Positions 927-63,632 of a DNA stretch of 64,000 nucleotides are shown here, one piece after another. Made by a program: the position numbers and the translations under genes. Positions within the stretch are counted from its first letter, which is position 1; each line of letters opens with the position of its first letter. The stretch covers positions 1-64,000 of IMG/VR virus record IMGVR_UViG_2703718869_000013; one strand, 5' to 3'. Under the pieces are notes generated by a model. It was not told where the DNA came from. It was given only the letters and a program-made list of their open reading frames with translations, and made no database searches. This DNA comes from a virus (Duplodnaviria; Heunggongvirae; Uroviricota; Caudoviricetes).

Positions 927-1699
927 TGGTTGCCTCCTTTGCGAAGCTGGGAAGCAAAGTCAACTAACCACTCTGTCATTTCAACCTTCCCTACCAGGTC
1001 TGAACCAGGGTGCATACAGCAATCACTCTGCGCCGCTTTGAAATCCTTATACTCATATTCTTGGGCCACCAGATTTTTTGCAGTTTCTATAGCAGCATCC
1101 ACCCCCTGCGCCCGCACTTCAGCCAGGCATTTGCGAAACTCGGAAACGTACTGTTCGACGCTCATTCCCCAGCTAAGTGGACATTCATTGAATGTTTCGC
1201 CTTCGTGCTCTTCATCAGGTAGCTCTTTGGTAAAGAACTCACGCTCAATGGCGTGGAGTGTGTCAGCAAAACGACGTAAGTTACTCAAACCTACCGTAAT
1301 GGAGAATTCAGGAGCATCACATCCGACGCCCATCTGCTGATAAACGGCGGTTTTGAAGGTCTTAAGCCCCGCATTCTCCGCCGCCAGCGCCGCGAGATTA
1401 GTCTCAAGCTCTGCAATTCGACACATAGCATCAATATTTGTGTCCTCCAGGCACTTAATTTCACCAAGCAGCTCCAGTGCAACCTTTGGGTTGAACGCGG
1501 CAACATGACGAGCGTTGTTCTCTGCATTTTTCTGTCCATCAAAGCCGGTCCATTTGATAACGTCTTCACATCGTTCATCACCGGGCGTGTGCACCGCATA
1601 AGTACCAGTATCCGTCGAAATAAATGCGACCCATTCGTCTGGTGTTGCCTTTTCTGCCGCCTCACGCAGTACCTGATAGTCAATTGTCATTCTCGCCAT
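923..1699 (-). CDS. Ead/Ea22-like phage protein (longer paralog)
   Basis: N-terminus MARMTIDYQVLREAAEKA shared with 516..926; 4-nt overlap coupling. Confidence 0.55.
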   Translation of the reverse strand: MARMTIDYQVLREAAEKATPDEWVAFISTDTGTYAVHTPGDERCEDVIKWTGFDGQKNAENNARHVAAFNPKVALELLGEIKCLEDTNIDAMCRIAELETNLAALAAENAGLKTFKTAVYQQMGVGCDAPEFSITVGLSNLRRFADTLHAIEREFFTKELPDEEHEGETFNECPLSWGMSVEQYVSEFRKCLAEVRAQGVDAAIETAKNLVAQEYEYKDFKAAQSDCCMHPGSDLVGKVEMTEWLVDFASQLRKGGNQ

Positions 1700-2331
1700 C
1701 CTTCACAGTTGTAATCACTACAGCCTTCAAAATCATATGGGCTGTACTGCCAGGTTATTTTTCCGCAATGCGGACAATTCCAACGCACCTTCCCGCTTCG
1801 CGACTTCTTTCTTCTGTTCTGCTCTTTCAACCAGTCAGGCATGACCAAACCTGCGCCCTGAACCATTGTTCTGCGGTTAAAGTTATTGATATTGAACGTC
1901 CGGCGCTTTGCTGCATCAGCAATGGAAAATGGCAACCAAACTATTCCTGGTTCGTTTTTGTTGGCGACGCTAAAGATGGTCGCTTTACTGAAGTCATCTG
2001 TTGGCAATCCACCGTGTTGAAGCCAGTAAACATCGTTGCCGTTCCAGCTACCTTTTTTGTAGGCCACATACTCAGTGCAATCTGACTCAATCAGGCTTTC
2101 TGTAGGGATGTACTGGCAATCAACGTGCCACACAGCCATTGCATCCACACTATCGGCACAAACAGGCTGATCGATATCTCGCCCACAATTCCAGGCTTTT
2201 TGGGCTTCTTCCAGCGTGTAAACATGAGCGCGATCGATATCAGAACTGTAACCATTGCCGTTATGGCAATGGAATGAGGCGTTATTACCCACAGTTTCAC
2301 GCAAGCACATCATGTAAAAACGGTTACTCAC
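1687..2331 (-). CDS. hypothetical phage protein, Cys-rich C-terminus
   Basis: 214-aa ORF in operon context; CPHCG and CxxC motifs suggest a zinc ribbon. Confidence 0.45.
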   Translation of the reverse strand: MSNRFYMMCLRETVGNNASFHCHNGNGYSSDIDRAHVYTLEEAQKAWNCGRDIDQPVCADSVDAMAVWHVDCQYIPTESLIESDCTEYVAYKKGSWNGNDVYWLQHGGLPTDDFSKATIFSVANKNEPGIVWLPFSIADAAKRRTFNINNFNRRTMVQGAGLVMPDWLKEQNRRKKSRSGKVRWNCPHCGKITWQYSPYDFEGCSDYNCEGWRE

Positions 2332-2539
2332 TGGATGCCTCCCAGCAAATTTGTCTTATATAAGAACTGTTAACGCGCTTTACTTTCCCGTCGAACTCCA
2401 GTTTCTTTAGACGACGCAAAACGTATGCCGTTTTGAGTGTGCGATATTTATCCCTAAGCCAGTTGGTCACGACGTAAGTCATACAGCGCCCGTGTTCTTC
2501 CAACACCCGAACTATTTCTTCGTCGGTTGGCTTGCTCAT
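2324..2539 (-). CDS. hypothetical protein (71 aa)
   Basis: ORF track; overlapping start/stop with neighbours. Confidence 0.4.
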   Translation of the reverse strand: MSKPTDEEIVRVLEEHGRCMTYVVTNWLRDKYRTLKTAYVLRRLKKLEFDGKVKRVNSSYIRQICWEASSE

Positions 2540-2757
2540 TTTGTCGCTCCTTCAGCTTTCTCTACTTTCGCTGCCATGATTTCCAGCTTTTGTGCTGCCG
2601 ATGCCGCTAACCTGTGAAATTCTTCATCTGTTTCAACTGGAATTGGTACAAACCTGACACCAATTTGAGCAAGGCTATGCGCCATTTCGAGACTTGTTCT
2701 TAACTCTGCTGGGGATGCTTTATTCAGGCCGACTTCCTCACAAATAACTGATTGCAT
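2536..2757 (-). CDS. hypothetical protein (73 aa)
   Basis: ORF track; translational coupling. Confidence 0.4.
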   Translation of the reverse strand: MQSVICEEVGLNKASPAELRTSLEMAHSLAQIGVRFVPIPVETDEEFHRLAASAAQKLEIMAAKVEKAEGATK

Positions 2758-2766
2758 ACGCTCGCC

Positions 2767-3482
2767 CTACTGAATACGCTCAAACTCGATTACCCAAACC
2801 CAGGGATTAGCACTCCAGCTTTCTTCGCCGTAGATGGATTCCCACAGGCGCTGGAACGCAACCTTGGCCATTGCGAAATCCCCCTTGGGAGTAAGGAATG
2901 TTCCCGGGTGATCAGGAAGCAAACTTCCAGCAGGCGGAACGCCCTCATCCCTTGCATCGCATTCGCTGATATCGTTCAACCGCTCAACGCGCACGTTGGT
3001 AATTTCCAACAGGATGCGCGCGGCATGTGAATTGATGGACGCCACCCACCATCAAACTTTTCATTCACAGTGTGAGGTTTCCAGTCGGCATCATCGGGTA
3101 TCGACCATAAGCCGTAATCACCAGGTTTTTGCTCGCAACTGGCCCGATAAATCCTTGCTGCGTTCTTCTCATCGCCACGACAAAGGTTGTCGTTCCAGTC
3201 CACACTGCAACCATCCTCATTGCCTAATATCGCCCATGTTTCACGAACCCAAATTCGATCGCCGACGATACCAAAGGGGCAATTGAAAACACTGCTTACA
3301 CCATCAGCCCCGTACCACTGAAAACCTGCACCAATTTTTCTAACCATCACTGGTGCTTCTGGACCAACTTCCGCAGGCTGATTTTTCATTATCCGCCGCG
3401 TCTGCGTTTTCCTTCCTTCGAGGATGGCCCGGACCATCTCATCGTTGAAAATCATGCCGCGCTCTTTCACTTCGCCTTTCAT
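2767..3482 (-). pseudogene. ASCH-domain protein gene interrupted by a frameshift (two ORFs, 2976..3482 and 2767..3045)
   Basis: N-terminal ILEGRKTQTRR and GDRIWVRETW in one frame; C-terminal ASCH-like end (WESIYGEESW...WVWVIEFERI) in the other; total length not a multiple of 3. Confidence 0.45.
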
Positions 3483-3491
3483 GCATCCCCC

Positions 3492-3578
3492 TTACCCATG
3501 TGCGACGATGCCGCCAAAAGTGATAGAGAACAGCCAGAAATAGATCGCGGCCATAATGATTTTGAATGCCGTGTTCAT
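3492..3578 (-). CDS. small hydrophobic peptide (28 aa, MNTAFKIIMAAIYFWLFSITFGGIVAHG)
   Basis: ATG with AGGAG 8 nt upstream; single predicted TM helix; absent from ORF track because under 60 aa. Confidence 0.35.
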   Translation of the reverse strand: MNTAFKIIMAAIYFWLFSITFGGIVAHG

Positions 3579-3607
3579 ATTTTCAGCTCCTGTGATTGAT
3601 TGGATAC

Positions 3608-3638
3608 ATGCCGCGTCTTGCGGCATGTTTTTATTTTC
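3608..3638 (+). terminator. GC-rich hairpin followed by T-run (plus-strand orientation)
   Basis: catgccgc-gtctt-gcggcatg then tttttatttt. Confidence 0.35.
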
Positions 3639-3660
3639 ACTTTCTCTGTTTTAAAAATCA

Positions 3661-3677
3661 AGATTTATTAGAGCAAT
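3661..3677 (-). promoter_or_regulatory. C1-type operator, 16/17 match to ATTGCTCTAATAAATTT
   Basis: agatttattagagcaat is the reverse complement of attgctctaataaatct. Confidence 0.55.
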
Positions 3678-4183
3678 TATTGCTGATGGAGAAGCGCATT
3701 TTCATACTCCCTGACCATTAACGTAAGTACGCCGTGTCTCCTGAAAACACGCGCCACTTCAATCTTATCTTCCAGCGCGAACGCAATTTTACTTAGACCA
3801 ATTTTCTTAAGGAGATCAATCTTTGCTGGGCCGTCATTTCTGTCATCGGTGGCAGGACGCATAGATAGCAAAGGCTCAGCCCCGTTTGTTACGTGCTTAC
3901 GCAACCAGGCTCGTGTTTTATCCCTTGCGATCTCACAGCGCCCGGTTACAAACCAGACCGTGTAAACGTTAAATAACTGGCGCACCATATCAATAACTGG
4001 AGTGATGGGAGTATCGGTGTCACAGGCGAGATTAAACTCGTTCCAGTCCTTTGTTAATGCACCTTTACCTGGTGGTGGAAGCAAATGCAGCCTGTCTTCC
4101 GTTGCCTCTGATATCGTCCCATCAATATCTACTATGACGATGTACGGACGTTCCTGGCGTGCGTGTTTATTGAAAATACTCAA
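3677..4183 (-). CDS. HAD-superfamily hydrolase-like protein (putative phosphatase/nucleotidase)
   Basis: motif I VIVDIDGTI (DxDGT) near N-terminus. Confidence 0.45.
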   Translation of the reverse strand: MSIFNKHARQERPYIVIVDIDGTISEATEDRLHLLPPPGKGALTKDWNEFNLACDTDTPITPVIDMVRQLFNVYTVWFVTGRCEIARDKTRAWLRKHVTNGAEPLLSMRPATDDRNDGPAKIDLLKKIGLSKIAFALEDKIEVARVFRRHGVLTLMVREYENALLHQQ

Positions 4184-4255
4184 ATGCCCTCCTCATTGGA
4201 CGAAAAAAATGCTGGTGGGCGCACTCCACCAGCATTAAAAGTGACACTGTAACTA

Positions 4256-5518
4256 TCAGCGAACGTAAATAGTGCCGCCGTTCTCTTTTTCCCATGCATC
4301 GCTACGTGCATAGCAAACATCAAGAAGTCTTCTTGCCGCTGTTTTCTCTAAACCCAATTCGACAACCAACTGCTCATGACGGCGGGTAACCACATCAAAC
4401 AGGGTATGCAACCCTTTAGTTGCCAGATCATCAATGAATTCCGGTTCGAACGGCAGCTCTGCATCTGCCAACATAACCTCTTGCGCCCACTCAACTCGAC
4501 GGACCAATTCCGGGCGGCGGCTTTCCATTTCTTTACAGATCAATTCATGGAAGAACTCTACCCAACCTTCCGGCTGGAACTCGCGGAAAATTGCCAACGG
4601 CTGGAAGTTTGGCATCAACCATTCGTTGATTCGGATATCAATGGCATAGCCCATGTCGCAGCAGAACTGATAAGCAAAGTCCAGCTTAGAAACGATATAA
4701 GGACGCTCGTTATTGAACTCTTTAGGCGATGAGATCCCATAAGCCAGGAGGCGCGGGAAGAAGGAGATTTGCCCTAACGTCGGATGAAGTTTGCTTGCAG
4801 GGAAACGGCGCTCAGTAATGCCATACATTTCCTTCTTGAGCGTCGCAAATTTGGCATTCTCATTAACCAGCGCGGTAACCTCTGCTTTTTTATTAGCAAA
4901 TGCCACGCGCGCCTCGCTTGCATCTTTAATAGTTTTTTTGAGCTGTTGGTTAAGGTCGGCGACCTGCTTACGCAGTTCCTGTCGCTCGCTTTTAGCTTTG
5001 TTATAGCGTTTCTCAAGGTTAAAAGGATCAAGTTTCATGATCTCTTTATATTGAGATTTTAGCGTTGAAATCTGTGAGTTCCGCAGTTCAACCATCGCGG
5101 TCATTTCATTGAGTTTTGTTTCCAGCTCAATGCTTATACGTTCGGCATTATCAGCACGCTGGTTGGCGTCATGCGTCGCATCGTCGATCGCGTCCTGTTG
5201 CTGGCGTTTCAAATGTTCAATTTGCAGCTGAAGCTCTTCAATTTCTTTACCCTTCAGACCGAGATCCAACTGCATATTTTCAGCTGCATCTACCAGGGAG
5301 TTATGGCTATCAGCTTCTGCGTTATAAACATCAATAAGCTGTGCGTGAAGCATCTCCGCTGACTGAACCGCATTATCAAAAAAACGTGCTGTGAGGTCAT
5401 CACAACTAACGCGGCGTTGCGCGGCCCGGATGTTCTGGATAATGGCCGGAATACCGGCATTCAGGACATCAGGAATAGATACATTTTCGATTGATTGGTT
5501 TTGTGCTGAAGTGCTCAT
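4256..5518 (-). CDS. hypothetical protein with long central coiled coil (420 aa)
   Basis: heptad-rich Q/E/K/L segment between residues ~90 and 230; good coding length. Confidence 0.45.
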   Translation of the reverse strand: MSTSAQNQSIENVSIPDVLNAGIPAIIQNIRAAQRRVSCDDLTARFFDNAVQSAEMLHAQLIDVYNAEADSHNSLVDAAENMQLDLGLKGKEIEELQLQIEHLKRQQQDAIDDATHDANQRADNAERISIELETKLNEMTAMVELRNSQISTLKSQYKEIMKLDPFNLEKRYNKAKSERQELRKQVADLNQQLKKTIKDASEARVAFANKKAEVTALVNENAKFATLKKEMYGITERRFPASKLHPTLGQISFFPRLLAYGISSPKEFNNERPYIVSKLDFAYQFCCDMGYAIDIRINEWLMPNFQPLAIFREFQPEGWVEFFHELICKEMESRRPELVRRVEWAQEVMLADAELPFEPEFIDDLATKGLHTLFDVVTRRHEQLVVELGLEKTAARRLLDVCYARSDAWEKENGGTIYVR

Positions 5519-21548: not shown

Positions 21549-24500
21549 ATACCCAAAACGTCATGAGCTACACCTCGAGTGTCCCCCTTACAAGACACAG
21601 AACGTCTGGCAAAAAGAGGTTCCACTCTGAAGCCACTGTCATGATAAAGCTCTCTGATGTTTGGCGCGCCACTGTTAGTAATGAGAACCTTTGCACCTCG
21701 ACGATGAGCATCCGTCAACAGAGACACCAGGCGTTTTTGCTCTTCAAACTTAAAGTCATGACCGGAATAGTTCGTGAATCCCTCTGTATTTGGAAGCGGT
21801 TCATACGGCGGATCGCAAAAGATGACATCTCCTTCTCCGGCAGCTTCAATCACCGCTGCAAAATCACCGCATACAAACTCAGACCGCCCTTCCGCACCGA
21901 GGAAGGCTTCCATCTCCTGTAATGGGAAATACGGAGTTTTATACTTCCCATAACCGACATTGAACTCACCGGCCTGGTTGTAACGCGTCAATCCGTTAAA
22001 ACAATGTCGGTTCAGGAACAAAAACGCCGCTGCGCGATGTAAATCATCATAGACTTGTTTGTTAAACGCATTCCGTACTGCCAGGTATCCTTCCTGTGTG
22101 TTGTAGTCCTGGAAGAAACGATGTGCCAGAGTGATAAGTGAATGCGCCTCGCGTTGCAGAGTCTTGTAAAAGTTAATCAGGTCAGCATTCACATCATTTA
22201 GCAGATTTTCCTGGTATCCGGCATTCATGAAGACAGCTCCGCCACCAACGAAAGGTTCAATCAGGCGCTTCCCTTCTGGCAAATAGCGAAAGATTTGTTC
22301 CAGAACACCAAATTTTCCACCAGCCCATTTGAATATGGACCGTTCGAATTCTGCCGCTGGTTTAACTTTTCGCTCTTTTGTTTCACTTCCTTCTTTCTGC
22401 CGACATACGGCCTTAGTAATCCGATCGCCAATCCAGCGCATTACTGGTATTGCCATACTATTGCCGATCGCTTTGTAACGCGGTCCGTCAGCTGCAAGCA
22501 TTGCGGCCTCTTCTTCGCTTAAATCTGGATAGTGATTGTGCAGATATGCCAGTTCATCTGAATTAACTTTTTTACGCTTTTCCGTAGGGATCAACGTATG
22601 CCAATCAGGAAAACCTTGCAGCCTTTCACATTCGACAGGGGTAAGACGGCGCATTCTACCGTCGCCGAGCAATACAATTGGTGCTTCATGGTTACATGTC
22701 AAAGTTGGTGCCGAATTATCGGTTTTTATCTCAGCCCCTCCTTGCCCATGTGCCATGGCAATTATGTTTGTATCATCGCAAGTTCTGATAGCGATGTTTG
22801 AAGTATATCTGGTAGTTTCCTTCCCCTCGCCTCTGCTCGGCGCAATATTCCGGCGCACGCCTTCGAACTCAAAAAGTACCGTTGCGGGATCGAGATCTGT
22901 TCGAGCACTTGCGACAACAAACACGCGTCGGCGTCGTTGTGCCACTCCGAAGTATTGGGCATCAAGGATTCTCCAGGCCACTTTTCGCTGCGGTCCATAA
23001 ATACAACCACACTGCGGCCACTTTGGAACATGGCAACCGGTTTTGCCATCCCACCGCCAGAACGCGTTGCTTTTTCCTGATTCAGGTCGATCACCTGGTT
23101 CAAATGGCACATCTTCTCCAGCCAATCCGGCAAGGAAACATCCGAAGGCGTTATCTGCCGATGACAAGACTCCTGGGACATTTTCCCAGACGATAACGGC
23201 TGGTTTGAGAAATGACTCAGCCCGTTTGTCGTCAATTGCATTTGCAAGCTCCACATACTTTAAAGTTAGCGCGCCACGCTCATCATCAAGCCCACCACGT
23301 AATCCCGCGATACTGAATGCCTGACAGTTATGGACCACCGCACCATTGAGGATATAGGAATGATCACCTTCGACTTCTATGTTGTATACAGTATCTAGGC
23401 CTACCGATTTAAACTCTTTGACTGTTCGTAAAAGCATTCCATGAGCCAATCTTGATTTACGTGACAATTTCTGCGGGCAGATTGTTACCTGATAATAATT
23501 CCGTTGATTTACCACGCGATCCTCGATCACTTTTTTGGGCTCAACTTCAATAAAGCTGACCGAAGAAACATAACCACAAGTCTGTGACAACCCCGCAACG
23601 CCCCAAGCAAGCGCAGAACTAACACTATTAATTCTAAATCCCGCTTTACCACTTGGTGTCCCATCAGTATCAAGATAGCCTTGTAAAAACACATGACGCA
23701 ATGGATGCGACATCACCCATGCAGGGATACGCTTAGCATGGCTTAACTCGCCAAAATGTTCATTAAGCCAATTGGCATAACACGTATCATTCAAGGTTAC
23801 TTTGATGCTCCCTCGGATTTCGCTTGCCACGGAAAATATGTTTTCTGGTATGCGGCAATGAAACTTTCTCAATTTCTGGCAATTTATGCCAAAAACAACC
23901 GCCTTCTTAGATTTACCTCTCCATCTCCTAATATATCCATCGCCAACATAAGCGCCCGCAAGATACATAGCCTGTTCTTCAGACAAGAACCGAGAACAAA
24001 TATCTGGAAATGCAATATTGAAATTAGTTAGAGCGCACCATTGATATCCCGGCATATCACATGCTGCTCGCCATTCCGGTTCAGACAACAACTCTCTCTT
24101 AAAATATGTGCCATTTTTCCGGGTGTTTTGGGCTTTCCACCGAACAGCCAGGAAGGGATGGTCATTGGTTGTTCTTATACCTAAAGGCTGCCCAACGGCA
24201 TTAAGTAACCCCGTATTAGCTATTTTTGAACCAACTCTTTTTACTTGTTGTAACCGCCCGAGATGACTGACTACGTAATCACCAGGGCAAACATTTTCTA
24301 TTGGTTTATAGCCATTTTTACAAAGAACCATATGCCCCGCGGTAAAACATGGTGTTCCCCCGACGAGCACGTCAGGGGATTCGATTTCCCCAGCCAAGAC
24401 TTTTTTGGCAAGTTTTTTCATGTCGCCAAGGTTGGCAACATGGGGCCAGCGGAGCGCAAGAACGGCCGATGGAAAAGGCTCGATTTCAGCAAACCACGCC

Positions 24501-24580
24501 GGACGCATACCCAACGGTTCCCAGGCAATACTCGCGGCTTCAATTCCACTGCAAACAGATCCATAGCACAGCTCTTTCAC
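21539..24580 (-). CDS. dmt: bifunctional DNA methyltransferase: N-terminal C5-cytosine MTase (intein-interrupted) and C-terminal Dam-like N6-adenine MTase
   Basis: C5 motifs GGTP|...|CQAFSIAG and ENVPG; Dam motifs [19 protein letters not shown]; 1013 aa. Confidence 0.8.
23327..24349 (-). other. intein (341 aa) with LAGLIDADG homing-endonuclease domain inside dmt
   Basis: begins CFTAGHMV, ends VVHN followed by Cys; [11 protein letters not shown] and [11 protein letters not shown] motifs; splits the GGPPCQ catalytic motif. Confidence 0.65.
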
Positions 24581-25830: not shown

Positions 25831-25847
25831 ATATTTATTAGAGCAAT
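25831..25847 (-). promoter_or_regulatory. C1-type operator (16/17) just upstream of uhr
   Basis: atatttattagagcaat. Confidence 0.55.
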
Positions 25848-60011: not shown

Positions 60012-61931
60012 ATGGAACAGTTCAATATCAATAAAGGGGTGGCGATCAAGCCTGGGCTTGACGTGCTTCCCCCGCCAGTGACTGATGATGAATATCGCGC
60101 ATTAATGGCCGGTGAGGACCGCTATCTGATGACGGAATCCAACACCCTGGAGGAAATCGAGGCTACGTTCTTCTATGACACGCCGATCCACTGGTGTGCT
60201 ACGGATTTACTGGAGGCGATTAGTTCTACTCGTTTGCAGCTACACCGGACCATGCAGGCATTTGTCCGGGCATTGAACCAGAAGCTGAATGGTACCGGAA
60301 TCTCTGCGGGGAGTGATAAAACGGGGGACGTGGCCCAGAACGGTGCACGCGCGATCGGCGGGGCTGAAATTGGCCGGGCGCGTAACGTTAACGGGCTGCC
60401 GGTTCTGCCAGCCATTATTCCGCTCAGTGATGGTCAGACTATCAGCATTCTGTTTCATAGCCCGACAGCGGAAAACCGGATCACCAATAGCGATACGCTG
60501 ATTGCTTTCCAGTTCTTACTGAATAAAAAAGACGTTACTCATACCGTTGCTCCGATGAGTGGACGTGATATGACGCTGGCGCAGGTCACCATGAAACTTG
60601 CCAACCTTGCAGAGAAAAACTCGGCAAAATTCCAGCGTGCGCAGAAGAAGAAAAAAGCCCTGGTTGATGAAATAACCCAACTACAGGCTGACAGTGACCA
60701 GAAAGAGGATGCCATGAGCGACCTCGCGGATCAGGTGGCAGCGGTAGAAGGCCAGAAGGCAGATCTGGAGCAGAAAATTAACGTGGTTGCTTCGGAAGCG
60801 GATTCTCTTTATCAAGAAAATGAGCGTTTGCAGGCGGAGATTGATCAGCTCAATCGCACTGGTGGGCGCGATACCATTGCTCCTGCGGGGATGACTGGTG
60901 GGCACTCTCGCGTGCTGACGGATCGCCTTGCCAGTATCAAAAATCGTATGCATATGGACGGGGAAGCGACGCTCAGTAATGGTGCATCAATGAAGCAATT
61001 CATTGGGGATGGCGAAGGGTATATCCAGTTAACCGATCCGGATGGCAGCGTATACATGATCAAGGCTAAATCCATACAGGGTGTGGACATGGCAGATGCG
61101 ATCGGCAAGCTGTTTAAAGCCTATAAAGCGGGTAATGTATCGGAATACCTGGTCCAACCAGAAGAACATAAACCGGAAAACGTCGAACCTGAACCAGCGG
61201 AGGATACCGGTAGCTCTTCGCCTGAACCAGAAGTCTCTGTAGGTGCATATCGATATGCCCTGCAAATGCGTCCGGCGGCCCCTGGCGCAATACCTGAAGG
61301 TAACAAAGCAATTCTGCCGCGCCCTGATGAAGGTGACCCGTATTATGAATATGCACGCTACGGCATTGCTACTTACGATACCCCGCTTTCTGATCAGCAA
61401 ATGAGTGAGTACGACCTGAAGTTATTGCCTCGCGAGGATTCTTTCGACTTCCTGGCGAAGACACTTACTAATGGTCCGTTTGGCAAATATGCACAAAAAG
61501 CTCTGGATCTGGCCACCAGCTCACCAGACGAGTTCCGCGTAATGCTGAAAACTCAGTTTCAAAAAACTTTCCCCAATATTGCGTTTCCGGGGGGCGCTGG
61601 CACCGAGAAAATGGTGCAGAGCATGATCAATGCATTGCAGGCCGAAGTCGGTGAGATTACTCAGCCAGAACCTGCCCCGGCACAGCCTGATGAAACGGTT
61701 AGCGAAGCAGATGCAGAGGCTAATAAAGCCATTGAATATCTCAATAACGTGATGGATATGCAAAGCACTGACATGGCGGAGATCCGTAACGCCCGGGGTA
61801 ATGTCCGGGAAGCGATTGCAGCCCTTCAGGCTGCCGGGCGTTTTGAGGAAAACGAAGAGCTGGTTAATGGCGCTGCTCGCCACCTGGCTGATCTGCTGGT
61901 AGCAATCCAGAAAGCGGGGGTAGCGGCATGA
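60012..61931 (+). CDS. darA: DarA-like head internal protein (defence against restriction)
   Basis: 639 aa; operon lydA-lydB-hdf-darA-ddrA as recalled for P1. Confidence 0.6.
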   Translation: MEQFNINKGVAIKPGLDVLPPPVTDDEYRALMAGEDRYLMTESNTLEEIEATFFYDTPIHWCATDLLEAISSTRLQLHRTMQAFVRALNQKLNGTGISAGSDKTGDVAQNGARAIGGAEIGRARNVNGLPVLPAIIPLSDGQTISILFHSPTAENRITNSDTLIAFQFLLNKKDVTHTVAPMSGRDMTLAQVTMKLANLAEKNSAKFQRAQKKKKALVDEITQLQADSDQKEDAMSDLADQVAAVEGQKADLEQKINVVASEADSLYQENERLQAEIDQLNRTGGRDTIAPAGMTGGHSRVLTDRLASIKNRMHMDGEATLSNGASMKQFIGDGEGYIQLTDPDGSVYMIKAKSIQGVDMADAIGKLFKAYKAGNVSEYLVQPEEHKPENVEPEPAEDTGSSSPEPEVSVGAYRYALQMRPAAPGAIPEGNKAILPRPDEGDPYYEYARYGIATYDTPLSDQQMSEYDLKLLPREDSFDFLAKTLTNGPFGKYAQKALDLATSSPDEFRVMLKTQFQKTFPNIAFPGGAGTEKMVQSMINALQAEVGEITQPEPAPAQPDETVSEADAEANKAIEYLNNVMDMQSTDMAEIRNARGNVREAIAALQAAGRFEENEELVNGAARHLADLLVAIQKAGVAA

Positions 61932-62293
61932 CACTATCAGCTATTGAGTTAATGGACCTCAGCGATAAGTTGGATGCTCTGATGTCCAAAGCGGCTACCG
62001 CGAGTGGCATGGAGTTGCTGGATATCAGCGATGAAATTGACCAGATCATGCAACAGATGGGGTACGGCGCGTCTGGCGACGGTAGTGGCGAGGAGAAACA
62101 ACCTTCGGAACATGATGGTGTGCCAAAACTGGTTGCTGATTTCCTGGCTGATAAATTCGTCGATCAGAGCACCGATGCATTTATCGGTACGTTGCAGGAC
62201 TTGAGTCAATATGTTGGCACATACATCGATCTGGACCAGGTTAAACAGCACACGGCGGCATGGATAGCCGCCAACATTAAAGAGGCAGCGTGA
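61928..62293 (+). CDS. ddrA: DdrA-like acidic protein
   Basis: 121 aa, coupled to darA. Confidence 0.4.
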   Translation: MTLSAIELMDLSDKLDALMSKAATASGMELLDISDEIDQIMQQMGYGASGDGSGEEKQPSEHDGVPKLVADFLADKFVDQSTDAFIGTLQDLSQYVGTYIDLDQVKQHTAAWIAANIKEAA

Positions 62294-63632
62294 CATCCTC
62301 CACGCCCCGAAGGGCGTGGATTCCTGCTACGTTCAGGCTGTCGCCTGAATCATTTCGGTGGGTTCCTGCTTCAACGGGCGGCCTGACTGCACCATCCCTC
62401 CACAGGCAAGTACGGCGTGTCCCGCCGCTAAAATGTTACGAGCGCCGTTTACATCGGCGTTCGCTGTATATCCACATACCTGGCATCTGAATTTACTTTG
62501 TGACAGGCGATTTTCTTTCGCTGTATGACCACAGCACGCGCAACGCTGGCTTGTGTACGCTGGCGGAACAGCAAGCACCTGACCGCCACGCCAGAGCTGC
62601 TTGTACTCAAGCTGGCGGCGCATTTCATACCAGCCCTGATCCAGTATCGAACGGTTTAAACCTGATTTTGCCCGGACATTGCGACCCGGATGACTTATCG
62701 TTCCCGCCGCTGACTTTGACATGTATTTAACCTTCAAATCCTCAATGACAATCATTGCGTGGTTTTTGCTGATGATCGTTGTGACTTTATGAAGGTAGTC
62801 TCTGCGGATATTTGCGATACGAAAATGCAGTCGCTGTATTTTGCGTTTCTGCTTCTGCCAGTTGTTGCTGAATTTGACCTTGCGGCTTAACTGTCGCTGA
62901 AGTCTCGCCAGCTTCTTCTGGTTTTTCTGAAAACTGTTTACAGGCTCAAAGACTGTGCCATCTGACAGCGTGGCGAGTTTAGCCACGCCAGCATCCAGCC
63001 CGATCATTGATGCTGAAGGGTGAACCGGAGTGGATATTTCACTTTCTGTCTGAATACTGATGTACCACTTACCGCAGGACTGGCTGACAGTGACATTTTT
63101 CACAACTCCCGTGACCTGACGGCTATTCCGGTAGCGCATCCAGCCCAGTTTCGGCAGAAAAATACGGCTGTTTTCCTGATCGAGCTTAACGCCCTGCGGG
63201 TAGCGAAATGCATCATTCTGTCCCCGCTTTTTGAATCGGGGAAAAGCAGCCCGATTCTGGAAGAAGTTTTTGTAAGCCCGCTCAAGGTCTTTCAGTGACT
63301 GTTGCAATGGCTGTGAGGGAGAATCTATAAGCCATTCGGTTTCAGTGTCTTTTTTCCACTCAACCAACCAGGAAGCCATTTTCGTGTAAGGGATGTATTT
63401 TTTACCGGCCTCATGATTCTCATTCTGAAGCGCCAGAGCACGGTTGAAAACGAAACGACAAGCTCCGGCAAAGTGCCTCATTTGACACTCCTGTTGACCA
63501 TCTGGTTTTAACCGGAATTTGAATGACACCTGTTGTTTCATGTCACTATTTTAAGCAAAAATAGCCGGGAGGAAAACTGTGCCTTATATCCCCACTATGA
63601 GGAGCGTAGGGGGCGGCACATTGGATAAGGCG
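62294..63632 (-). mobile_element. IS200/IS605-family insertion carrying only tnpB (ends approximate)
   Basis: tnpB ORF; subterminal hairpin 62300..62319; TTAC at the proposed left-end junction (about 63633..63636 on the minus strand); no tnpA. Confidence 0.55.
62333..63541 (-). CDS. tnpB: TnpB (OrfB) RNA-guided nuclease-like transposon protein
   Basis: RuvC-like [20 protein letters not shown] and zinc finger CACCGH...CQVCG; 402 aa. Confidence 0.85.

What the first reader, a model, noticed from the sequence alone, without database searches (positions are those of the whole stretch)
23327..24349. LAGLIDADG intein inserted at the catalytic cysteine of the C5-methyltransferase domain of Dmt
The dmt product reads GGTP, then 341 residues, then CQAFSIAG. 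The flanks reconstitute the C5-MTase catalytic motif (GGxPCQxFSxAG), and ENVPG follows downstream. The insert starts with Cys (CFTAGHMV), ends with His-Asn before the catalytic Cys, and carries two LAGLIDADG-like motifs. The C5-MTase (N) then Dam (C) domain order may also differ from P1 Dmt as I recall it. I am not aware of inteins described in phage-plasmid methyltransferases.
Basis: partly seen in the sequence, partly recalled or inferred. Interest (0 to 1): 0.7.

Follow-up and report, generated by a model that had tools for sequence, protein, structure and literature searches.

The report
Homing intein in phage P1-family Dmt methyltransferase
The DNA methyltransferase gene of this P1-like phage-plasmid is split, exactly at its catalytic cysteine, by a typical self-splicing mobile protein element (an intein); it is real and common in E. 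coli plasmids, I found no description of it in the literature I could search, and it is an ordinary example of a known kind.

Summary
The dmt ORF lies on the minus strand (21539-24580, 1013 aa). It carries a 341-aa in-frame insert (23327-24349) between GGTP and CQAFSIAG.

Intein-free P1-family alleles, including P7 Dam (672 aa) and reference P1 Dmt, are colinear and lack exactly these 1023 nt.

The insert has the sequence features of a class-1 intein:
- Cys1, a TxxH block B, a terminal His-Asn, and a +1 Cys that aligns with M.HhaI Cys81.
- Two LAGLIDADG motifs with their acidic residues.
- A confident AlphaFold model (pLDDT 90.9) that matches PI-SceI, the TliVMA intein and PI-PfuI.

About 26% of P1-like plasmids in PLSDB and 152 of 5426 complete E. 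coli genomes carry it, as does a laboratory P1vir stock. All records seen are annotated only as Dam methyltransferase.

Population data fit homing. Intein copies differ by at most 1.5% while host genes differ by up to 9%. The intein sits in three target-recognition-domain backgrounds, one synonymous flanking base is fully linked to it, and it is under purifying selection (omega about 0.27).

Relatives occupy the same Pro|Cys site in many phage C5-methyltransferases. Verdict: a new member of a known kind. Splicing and cleavage are not tested.

The parts
21539..24580 (-). dmt precursor ORF, 1013 aa plus stop: N-extein, intein, then a C-extein made of the rest of the C5-methyltransferase followed by the Dam domain
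   Evidence: ORF; Pfam DNA_methylase, LAGLIDADG_3, Hint_2, MethyltransfD12; 99% identical to dmt of OP279344, with the same uhr-hrdC-dmt-tRNA synteny
24350..24580 (-). N-extein, 77 aa: C5-methyltransferase motif I ([10 protein letters not shown]) up to the Gly-Gly-Thr-Pro of motif IV
   Evidence: aligned with M.HhaI residues 27-80
23327..24349 (-). Intein, 341 aa, class 1, with an embedded LAGLIDADG homing endonuclease. G+C is about 42-44%, against 51-53% in the flanking extein.
24326..24349 (-). Intein block A (CFTAGHMV), with Cys1 as the N-terminal splicing nucleophile
   Evidence: Cys1 is invariant in 9 family members
24152..24172 (-). Intein block B (TTNDHPF), holding the TxxH residues Thr61 and His64
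   Evidence: both residues are invariant in alignment A3
23930..23965 (-). LAGLIDADG motif 1 ([12 protein letters not shown]), with catalytic Asp137
   Evidence: Asp137 is invariant in the family and in 36 of 36 P1-type copies
23657..23689 (-). LAGLIDADG motif 2 ([11 protein letters not shown]), with catalytic Asp229
23546..23992 (-). Approximate extent of the homing-endonuclease domain (intein residues about 120-268), an alpha/beta region inserted between the two halves of the Hint fold
   Evidence: secondary structure of the model; Foldseek matches to I-DmoI and I-SceI
23327..23389 (-). Intein blocks F and G ([12 protein letters not shown]...GAVVHN), ending in His340-Asn341
   Evidence: aligned with the C-terminus of the Spl DnaX mini-intein; TIGR01443 above its cut-off
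23324..23326 (-). +1 Cys codon. This residue is both the C-extein splicing nucleophile and the catalytic cysteine of C5-methyltransferase motif IV (PCQ).
   Evidence: aligned with Cys81 of M.HhaI in GFPCQAFSISG
22346..23326 (-). C-extein part 1: the rest of the C5-methyltransferase (motif IV Cys, ENVPG, QRRRR, the variable target-recognition region at about 22652-22834, and GNS). The 22346 boundary with the Dam domain is approximate.
21542..22345 (-). C-extein part 2: complete Dam-type (D12 class) N6-adenine methyltransferase domain, with the FCDPPY motif
   Evidence: PF02086, 1.9e-56, profile positions 1-242 of 253; TIGR00571
25831..25847 (-). C1 repressor operator (identical to P7 Op(dam), equivalent to P1 Odmt) upstream of the uhr-hrdC-dmt operon. 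It implies the intein-bearing gene is switched on when repression is lifted.
   Evidence: exact match to the operator annotated in P7; its function is taken from the P1 and P7 annotation

Best explanation
The 341-residue insert is a genuine class-1 intein that carries a LAGLIDADG homing endonuclease. It sits between Pro77 and the catalytic Cys of motif IV (PCQ) of the C5-cytosine methyltransferase half of the bifunctional P1-family enzyme Dmt.

Shown:
- The insert is a precise in-frame insertion that is absent from otherwise near-identical alleles.
- It has the canonical splicing residues and the Hint plus LAGLIDADG fold.
- Its reading frame is under purifying selection.
- Nearly identical copies sit in diverged dmt alleles.

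Inferred mechanism:
- dmt is transcribed with uhr and hrdC from the C1-repressed promoter.
- The 1013-aa precursor splices itself: an N-S acyl shift at Cys1, trans-thioesterification to the +1 Cys, cyclisation of Asn341, then an S-N shift.
- Splicing yields a 672-aa Dmt, whose PCQ active site is rebuilt only by this reaction, and a free 341-aa endonuclease.
- The C-terminal Dam domain is a complete separate domain, so it probably works before splicing as well. This would keep the cost of the intein low.
- When an intein-bearing and an intein-free P1-like genome meet in one cell, the endonuclease cuts the empty GGTP|CQAF site. Repair then copies the intein in, together with a short flanking tract.
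For: Precise insertion:
- Three phage intein-free alleles align colinearly without these 341 codons, and five more plasmid alleles read [12 protein letters not shown] uninterrupted.

Splicing residues:
- Cys1, Thr61 and His64 (TxxH) and Asn341 are invariant across 9 family members at 29-53% identity; His340 is kept in 7 of 9. All five, the two LAGLIDADG Asp residues and the +1 Cys are intact in all 36 P1-type copies.
- TIGR01443 scores above its cut-off.

Fold:
- The AlphaFold model has pLDDT 90.9 and pTM 0.88.
- Foldseek matches are PI-SceI 4e-18, TliVMA intein 1e-16, PI-PfuI 1e-11, PI-PkoII 2.5e-9 and I-DmoI 4e-5.

Endonuclease:
- Pfam LAGLIDADG_3 scores 3e-8. Both motif aspartates are conserved.

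Catalytic site:
- The +1 Cys aligns with M.HhaI Cys81.

Foreign origin:
- G+C is 42-44% in the insert and 51-53% in the flanks.

Mobility:
- The distribution is patchy. In PLSDB, 129 records carry the intein, against 363 records with an uninterrupted junction among 497 that hold the dmt 5' region.
- 152 of 5426 complete E. coli genomes carry it.
- It occurs in three target-recognition-domain backgrounds, with extein lengths of 2019, 2265 and 2424 nt.
- Intein copies differ by at most 15 of 1023 nt, while the Dam domains of intein-bearing genes differ by up to 76 of 840 nt.
- The intein of L009 is identical to that of L001. The C-extein of L009 is identical over 480 nt to intein-free L011, and differs from L001 from position +24 onward.
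- The last base before the intein is A (codon CCA) in 36 of 36 intein-bearing alleles and T (CCT) in 8 of 8 intein-free alleles.
- Exact 36-nt junction searches of PLSDB found no intein-free CCA junction, no intein-bearing CCT junction and 158 intein-free CCT junctions.

Selection:
- Among the variable sites, 20 are synonymous and 19 non-synonymous, giving omega about 0.27 (binomial p = 6.5e-5). For the endonuclease domain alone omega is about 0.31.

Compatibility with phage growth:
- A laboratory P1vir stock (OP279344) carries the intein (PMC10250240).
Against: - No experiment shows splicing or DNA cleavage.
- The Pfam Hint_2 score is 0.2-0.3 bit below the gathering cut-off, and Intein_splicing is well below its cut-off.
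- The population pattern (a mosaic, plus a flanking base that is always linked) could also come from ordinary homologous recombination among co-resident P1-like plasmids, carrying a block that entered only once.
- In the small sample, intein-bearing plasmids share one replicon type (5 of 5 typed 'IncHI1B') and intein-free ones mostly another (IncY). This points to partial clonal inheritance.
- The window's copy has three derived amino-acid changes (D19N, S114F, P245S) whose effect is unknown.
- Whether the C5 domain of Dmt is active at all is only 'perhaps' in the P1 annotation.
Confidence: 0.85

Rival explanations
1. The intein can splice but its endonuclease no longer cuts, or is not needed. 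The element entered P1-type dmt once, and has since spread only by vertical descent and by general homologous recombination between related phage-plasmids.
For: - One synonymous flanking base is linked to the intein in every copy examined, which fits a single founding event.
- dmt is visibly mosaic even without the intein, for example in its target-recognition-domain swaps.
- Intein-bearing plasmids in the sample share one replicon type.
- The window and L002 differ only in the target-recognition domain, which is a recombination event unrelated to homing.
Against: - The endonuclease domain is under purifying selection (omega about 0.31) and keeps both catalytic aspartates in 36 of 36 copies. 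No frameshift or stop was seen.
- The recombination breakpoint lies within 24 nt of the intein's C-terminal junction in L009, as expected for repair of a break at the homing site.
- The element is held at about 26% frequency across E. coli, E. albertii, E. fergusonii, Salmonella and Shigella.
Confidence: 0.2
2. Splicing is conditional, for example sensitive to redox state through the intein's 11 cysteines, or to temperature. The intein would then act as a post-translational switch: C5-cytosine methylation would be turned on only under certain conditions, while the Dam activity of the same polypeptide stays constitutive.
For: - The intein interrupts only one of the two catalytic domains, and its +1 residue is the catalytic Cys.
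- The intein contains Cys at positions 1, 10, 21, 97, 105, 118, 157, 165, 190, 258 and 291.
- Conditional splicing through disulfides is established for some other inteins (general knowledge, not tested here).
Against: - No feature specific to regulation was found.
- Relatives at the same site occur in many single-domain C5-methyltransferases, so the insertion site is explained by the conserved PCQ motif alone.
- Cys10 and Cys21 are not conserved in the family.
Confidence: 0.1
3. The insert does not splice. It permanently inactivates the C5-methyltransferase half, and the gene is kept only for its Dam domain.
For: - Host Dam or the Dmt Dam domain is what P1 needs, according to the P1 literature quoted in PMC11437467.
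- C5 activity of Dmt is annotated only as 'perhaps'.
- Reference P1 carries a G74W change in motif IV.
Against: - All splicing residues are intact in 36 of 36 copies, and the splicing domains are under the strongest purifying selection (omega 0.16 for the N-terminal Hint half).
- The C5 extein motifs (IV, ENV, QRRRR, GNS) are intact in intein-bearing alleles.
Confidence: 0.05

Closest known systems
Canonical class-1 inteins with a LAGLIDADG endonuclease: PI-SceI (yeast VMA1), TliVMA and PhoVMA inteins, PI-PfuI, PI-PkoII
   Same: - Same architecture: a Hint fold split by a LAGLIDADG domain.
- Same splicing residues: Cys1, TxxH, terminal His-Asn and a +1 Cys.
- Inserted at a catalytic motif of a conserved enzyme.
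- These are the best structural matches.
   Different: - Only 11-17% sequence identity.
- At 341 aa, shorter than PI-SceI (454 aa) and PI-PfuI.
- A different host protein.
- No biochemical evidence exists for this one.
Inteins in actinobacteriophage DNA methylases: DNMT-1 and DNMT-2 in N6_N4 methylases (Kelley et al. 2016, PMC5050341), the methylase intein of Gogarten and colleagues (PMC9957025), and C-5 methylases (IPR001525) listed as intein hosts in the 2025 survey (bioRxiv 10.1101/2025.01.02.630785)
   Same: - A phage-encoded orphan DNA methyltransferase invaded by a LAGLIDADG intein.
- Patchy distribution, with transfer between diverged methylase alleles.
   Different: - Those are in phages of Actinobacteria, and the well-described cases are in N6/N4 methylases.
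- I could not find the insertion site of the actinophage C-5 methylase inteins in the text, so allelic identity with the Pro|Cys site was not tested.
- This one is in an enterobacterial phage-plasmid and in a two-domain (C5 plus Dam) enzyme.
Uncharacterised inteins at the same Pro|Cys site of C5-methyltransferases in public genomes and viromes (for example Metarhizobium album, Mannheimia haemolytica, many IMG/VR contigs, and the mini-intein P0019)
   Same: - Homologous inteins (23-56% identity) at the identical position, ...P|C...N|C(Q/T/A)xxS.
- At least 121 of the best 150 cluster representatives show this pattern.
- P0036 is another C5-Dam fusion with a 56%-identical intein.
   Different: - The host methyltransferases are mostly single-domain and come from other phyla.
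- As far as I could find, none has been described in a paper.
Intein-free P1-family Dmt/Dam: P1 Dmt (AAQ14041, 754 aa) and P7 Dam (AAQ07538, 672 aa)
   Same: - Same operon (uhr-hrdC-dmt, C1 operators, tRNA genes downstream).
- 91-97% protein identity over the exteins.
- Same C5-then-Dam order.
   Different: - They lack the 341-aa intein.
- P1 has a longer target-recognition region.
- The reference P1 sequence has VWGTPC in place of VGGTPC.

Membership tests
Intein (class 1) | In-frame insertion in a conserved host protein that is precisely absent from orthologs, so that removal restores the host sequence | tested here: met
   Three intein-free alleles align without exactly these 341 codons, and five more read [12 protein letters not shown] uninterrupted. 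The 1023-nt difference shows in record spans.
Intein (class 1) | N-terminal nucleophile (Cys or Ser at position 1) and block B TxxH | tested here: met
   Cys1, Thr61 and His64 are invariant in 9 family members and in 36 P1-type copies.
Intein (class 1) | C-terminal His-Asn followed by a Cys, Ser or Thr at +1 | tested here: met
   ...AVVHN|C. TIGR01443 scores 25.9-28.9 bits against a cut-off of 15.6. The C-terminus aligns with that of the Spl DnaX mini-intein.
Intein (class 1) | Hint fold | tested here: met
   The AlphaFold model (pLDDT 90.9) matches PI-SceI, the TliVMA intein, PI-PfuI and the Prp8 mini-inteins. Pfam Hint_2 scores 28.1-28.2 bits, just under its 28.4 cut-off.
Intein (class 1) | Autocatalytic protein splicing that yields the ligated exteins and the free intein | not testable with these tools
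   This needs expression with a western blot or mass spectrometry. The only indirect support is purifying selection on the splicing residues and a viable P1vir stock that carries the element.
LAGLIDADG homing endonuclease (two-motif, monomeric) | Two LAGLIDADG helices, each ending in a catalytic acidic residue, within the alpha-beta-beta-alpha-beta-beta-alpha fold | tested here: met
   YLAGAYVGD137G and FLQGYLDTD229G. Pfam LAGLIDADG_3 scores 34.2 bits against a cut-off of 22.5. Foldseek matches I-DmoI, I-SceI and I-OnuI.
LAGLIDADG homing endonuclease (two-motif, monomeric) | Site-specific cleavage of the empty allele | not testable with these tools
   This needs a cleavage assay on the intein-free junction.
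LAGLIDADG homing endonuclease (two-motif, monomeric) | Population signature of homing: sporadic distribution, intein much less diverged than the exteins, short co-converted flanks | tested here: inconclusive
   All three signatures are seen. General recombination of a block that was acquired once is not excluded.
C5-cytosine DNA methyltransferase (PF00145) | Conserved motifs I, IV (PCQ), VI (ENV), VIII (QRR) and X (GNS) in the spliced product | tested here: met
   Pfam DNA_methylase scores 7e-30. The intein-free protein aligns with M.HhaI across motifs IV and VI, the RRLTPxE region and GNS. Enzyme activity was not tested.
Dam / D12-class N6-adenine methyltransferase | Full-length D12 domain with the DPPY catalytic motif | tested here: met
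   PF02086 scores 1.9e-56 over profile positions 1-242 of 253, TIGR00571 scores 249 bits, and FCDPPY is present in the translated ORF.
P1-family Dmt ortholog | Position in the C1-controlled uhr-hrdC-dmt operon upstream of the tRNA genes, with high identity to P1 and P7 Dmt | tested here: met
   96-99% nucleotide identity to punavirus dmt, the same neighbouring genes, and exact matches to the operators annotated in P7.

The most novel reading that the evidence does not exclude
The intein is more than a passenger. Because it splits only the C5-cytosine half of a two-activity enzyme at the catalytic cysteine, splicing (possibly conditional on redox state or temperature) would set when the phage-plasmid starts to methylate cytosines, while adenine methylation by the same polypeptide continues. 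In addition, its endonuclease would actively drive gene conversion between co-resident P1-like plasmids, and so shape the dmt specificity mosaic.
Probability: 0.1. Interest if true: 0.6.

Novelty: new member of a known kind. Interest (0 to 1): 0.4.

Why it matters
P1 is one of the classic phages of E. coli and the standard tool for generalized transduction. Its dmt gene has been annotated for two decades.

About a quarter of natural P1-like plasmids carry an unannotated, apparently functional homing intein, and so does at least one laboratory P1vir stock. This has practical consequences:
- The 1013-aa "Dam family methyltransferase" in hundreds of records is a precursor, not the mature enzyme.
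- Size-based or domain-based comparisons of Dmt are distorted by the insert.
- It offers a native E. coli system, with natural intein-bearing and intein-free alleles and easy genetics, for studying intein splicing, homing and co-conversion in a phage-plasmid.

The work also shows that the Pro|Cys site of motif IV is a recurrent intein site in phage C5-methyltransferases. It does not reveal a new mechanism.

Tried and rejected
- **Domain order.** I checked the idea that the order differs from P1 and rejected it. Reference P1 Dmt is colinear, with C5 first and Dam second.
- **Chance or assembly artefact.** Rejected. The exact 1013-aa protein is on at least 1000 contigs, and the intein DNA is in 129 PLSDB plasmids and 152 complete E. 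coli genomes.
- **Bacterial intein-like (BIL) or other non-intein Hint domain.** Rejected, because the insert has the +1 Cys and the His-Asn, lies at a conserved catalytic site, and is precisely absent from orthologs.
- **Literature.** Nine searches for an intein in P1, P7, dmt, phage-plasmids or C5-methyltransferases found no description. Novikova et al. 2016 does not mention methylases in its main text. The only relevant statement is the listing of C-5 methylases among actinophage intein hosts.
- **Internal late promoter.** P7's predicted promoter LPdam2 might allow separate expression of Dam. The window matches only 17 of 19 bases, and the promoter is itself only a prediction, so I gave it no weight.
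- **Failed tool run.** The search for related loci with the 9-sequence alignment failed for lack of a conserved stretch. It worked with 5 sequences.
- **Species-representative genomes.** That scan gave only 4 loci. It under-samples plasmids and phages, and the viral and protein-representative searches were far more informative.
- **Not done.** I did not model the full precursor or the spliced product. Neither would have changed the conclusion.
Full report
**1. The observation**

The window is part of a P1-like (Punavirus) phage-plasmid. On the minus strand, the ORF listing gives a 1013-aa ORF at 21539..24580. It is 99% identical in DNA to dmt of OP279344 and 96-99% identical to other punavirus dmt/dam genes. 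It has the same neighbours: uhr and hrdC/rdgC upstream, tRNA genes downstream.

The protein reads ...DVLVGGTP | CFTAGHMV ... NGAVVHN | CQAFSIAG..., and WENVPG follows.

A protein alignment with P7 Dam (672 aa), MH422554 (672 aa) and reference P1 Dmt (754 aa) shows that these lack precisely the 341 codons and read [12 protein letters not shown]. The record spans, 2019 nt against 3042 nt, differ by exactly 1023 nt. Five further intein-free plasmid alleles also read [12 protein letters not shown] uninterrupted.

**2. What the insert is**

Sequence profiles:
- Pfam finds LAGLIDADG_3 above its cut-off (34.2 bits against 22.5).
- Pfam Hint_2 covers the first 50 residues and falls 0.2-0.3 bit below its cut-off. 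The match to Intein_splicing is weak.
- NCBIfam TIGR01443 (intein C-terminal splicing region) is above its cut-off.
- phmmer against PDB sequences aligns the C-terminus with the Spl DnaX mini-intein and the central part with PI-PkoII.

Structure:
- An AlphaFold2 model built on 12 sequences is confident (mean pLDDT 90.9, pTM 0.88). It shows beta-strands at both ends and an alpha/beta domain in the middle.
- Foldseek against the PDB returns intein-endonucleases first: PI-SceI 4e-18, TliVMA intein 1e-16, PI-PfuI 1e-11, PhoVMA 4e-11 and PI-PkoII 2.5e-9.
- Free-standing LAGLIDADG enzymes (I-DmoI, I-SceI, I-OnuI) and mini-inteins (Prp8) follow.

Canonical residues, all present:
- Cys1.
- Thr61 and His64 (block B, TxxH).
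- Asp137 and Asp229, at the ends of the two LAGLIDADG helices.
- Block F ([12 protein letters not shown]).
- His340-Asn341, followed by Cys at +1.

Host site: the intein-free protein aligns to M.HhaI so that [12 protein letters not shown] matches GFPCQAFSISG. From established knowledge of M.HhaI, Cys81 is the catalytic nucleophile there. The +1 Cys is therefore both the splicing nucleophile and the methyltransferase active-site cysteine.

Composition: the insert has a lower G+C content (42-44%) than the flanking extein (51-53%).

**3.

The C-extein holds the remainder of the C5-methyltransferase and then a complete D12-class Dam domain (PF02086 1.9e-56; TIGR00571). Reference P1 Dmt has the same order, so the suggestion that the order differs from P1 is wrong.

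Exact copies of the C1 operators annotated in P7 flank the operon. Op(dam)/Odmt lies at 25831-25847 and Oban at 21521-21548. The intein-bearing gene therefore belongs to the repressor-controlled set. That it is expressed on derepression is inferred from the P1 and P7 annotation.

**4. Distribution**

- The intein DNA is in 129 PLSDB plasmids at 95-100% identity: 114 Escherichia (including E. albertii and E. fergusonii), 14 Salmonella and 1 Shigella.
- The dmt 5' region is in 497 records. Of these, 363 have an uninterrupted junction and about 131 are split. So about 26% of P1-like plasmids carry the intein.
- Among complete E. coli genomes, 152 of 5426 carry it.
- The exact 1013-aa protein of the window is on at least 1000 contigs and is named only "Dam family site-specific DNA-(adenine-N6)-methyltransferase". 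No record I saw flags an intein.
- OP279344 is the sequenced laboratory P1vir stock of the Kulbachinskiy group (PMC10250240). The element is therefore compatible with normal lytic growth.

**5. Evidence on function and mobility**

I collected 16 dmt alleles, 8 with and 8 without the intein, and 28 further intein-bearing loci from the genome and IMG/VR scans.

- All 36 intein copies are intact, with every key residue conserved.
- There are 20 distinct sequences, which differ by at most 15 of 1023 nt.
- Of 39 variable sites, 20 are synonymous and 19 non-synonymous. Neutral expectation is about 22% synonymous (binomial p = 6.5e-5). Omega is about 0.27 overall: 0.16 for the N-terminal Hint half, 0.31 for the endonuclease domain and 0.59 for the short C-terminal part.
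- The host genes are much more diverged than the intein. L006 and L010 differ at 6 of 1023 intein positions but at 76 of 840 positions in the Dam domain.
- The intein occurs in three target-recognition-domain backgrounds, with exteins of 2019, 2265 and 2424 nt. At least the first two of these also exist without the intein.
- The intein of L009 is identical to that of L001. The C-extein of L009 is identical over 480 nt to intein-free L011, and differs from L001 at 13 sites from +24 onward. On the N side, L009 differs from L011 only at -1, -22, -48 and -104. This is the pattern expected from repair of a break at the homing site with a short, asymmetric co-conversion tract.
- The only site perfectly linked to intein presence is the last extein base. 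The Pro codon is CCA in 36 of 36 intein-bearing alleles and CCT in 8 of 8 intein-free alleles.
- Exact 36-nt junction searches of PLSDB found no intein-free CCA junction and no intein-bearing CCT junction. The positive control, the intein-free CCT junction, gave 158 records.

These data show recent horizontal spread of the element among dmt alleles, and selection for its coding capacity, including the endonuclease. They do not by themselves separate endonuclease-driven homing from ordinary recombination of a block that entered once. In the small sample, intein-bearing plasmids also share one MOB-suite replicon label.

**6. Relatives**

- A word-indexed search with the intein alone returned 20 proteins, all carrying PF00145. 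They include 47-53% identical inteins at the same GGTP|C...HN|CQ position, and a 141-aa mini-intein (P0019) at that position.
- An exhaustive phmmer search of 1.84 billion cluster representatives found 186 with E <= 1e-30. At least 121 of the best 150 show ...P|C...N|CQxxSxxG, that is, the same site.
- IMG/VR holds 53 loci. The 24 intact, more distant ones I translated (23-54% identity) all sit between the Pro and the Cys of motif IV, in diverse C5-methyltransferases (GGTPCQ, YSFPCQ, GGFPCA, HGSPCT, GSPPCA). A 25th copy, L062, has decayed.
- Species-representative genomes add Metarhizobium album and a Deferribacteres MAG. In both, the gene lies next to primase genes.
- P0036 is another C5-Dam fusion whose intein (56% identical) and exteins are about equally diverged from the window's. 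This suggests a long association with this enzyme family.

**7. Comparison with what is known**

Inteins in phage DNA methylases are established for actinobacteriophages: N6_N4 methylases in Kelley et al. 2016 (PMC5050341) and in PMC9957025. A 2025 survey lists C-5 methylases (IPR001525) among intein hosts. I could not find the insertion site of those inteins in the text.

Nine full-text searches found no paper describing an intein in P1, P7, dmt, any phage-plasmid, or at the PCQ motif.

The element meets every sequence and structure criterion for a class-1 LAGLIDADG intein. Splicing and cleavage could not be tested. It is a new member of a known kind.

**8. Mechanism, with confidence**

- That the insert is an intein: about 0.95.
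- That it splices, restoring a 672-aa Dmt whose C5 active site exists only after splicing: about 0.85. This is inferred from intact residues, purifying selection and a viable P1vir stock.
- That its endonuclease is active and drives homing: about 0.6. This is inferred from conserved catalytic aspartates, an omega of 0.31 and the population signatures.
- That the Dam domain works in the precursor is a plausible inference from domain independence only.
- Conditional splicing as a regulatory switch is possible but has no specific support (about 0.1).

**9. Verdict**

The finding is correct and well characterised. It is of practical value for annotation and as an experimental system, but it is mechanistically ordinary. 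Interest 0.4.

Noticed in passing
L004 (AF234172, reference P1) 1720-1722; equivalent to window codon 74 at 24359-24361 (-): The reference P1 c1.100 mod749::IS5 sequence has VWGTPC in place of VGGTPC (G74W, G to T at gene nucleotide 220) in catalytic motif IV of the C5 domain. The other 15 alleles examined have Gly. This may be why C5 activity of P1 Dmt is annotated only as 'perhaps'.
   Followed up: partly
window about 22652-22834 (-); L002, L004, L009, L014: The target-recognition region of the C5 domain of dmt is a cassette polymorphism. Extein lengths are 672, 754, 807 and about 851 aa among P1-like plasmids, and the flanks are otherwise near-identical. This suggests several cytosine-methylation specificities that are exchanged by recombination.
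   Followed up: partly
window 20700-20786 (-): An 87-nt tRNA-Tyr(GTA) lies between tRNA-Asn and tRNA-Thr downstream of dmt, as in phage vB_EcoM-Ro157c2YLVW. P1, P7 and OP279344 are annotated with only Asn and Thr there. A tRNA-Met lies at 18612-18687.
   Followed up: no
L001 (OP279344.1) 1501-4542: The sequenced laboratory P1vir stock used in PMC10250240 carries the intein-bearing, short-recognition-domain dmt allele, unlike the reference P1 sequence. Laboratory P1 lines therefore differ at this locus.
   Followed up: partly
P0010; L051 and L052 (IMG/VR): In Mannheimia haemolytica (578 contigs), a 340-aa relative of the intein is intact, but the C-extein ends 20 residues after the +1 Cys (CQSDKGG...). 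This is an intact intein in an apparently truncated methyltransferase. Full-length versions exist in L049 and L054.
   Followed up: no
L006-L010 compared with L011-L015 (PLSDB typing): All five sampled intein-bearing plasmids are typed 'IncHI1B' by MOB-suite. Four of the five intein-free plasmids are typed IncY. The intein may be enriched in one replicon lineage of P1-like plasmids.
   Followed up: no
P0019 (306 aa), residues 115-255: A 141-aa mini-intein with no endonuclease domain sits at the same Pro|Cys site of a C5-methyltransferase. Its Hint blocks are clearly related to the window's intein.
   Followed up: no
L011 (NZ_CP031351.1) 1021-2234: An IS3-family transposase is inserted between rdgC and dmt in this O145 plasmid, separating dmt from its operon promoter.
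   Followed up: no
H58 and H93, NZ_CP070953.1 (E. fergusonii plasmid) 61745-62294: This record holds only the N-extein and the first 320 nt of the intein. It is a truncated copy, and the only clearly disrupted P1-type intein seen.
   Followed up: no
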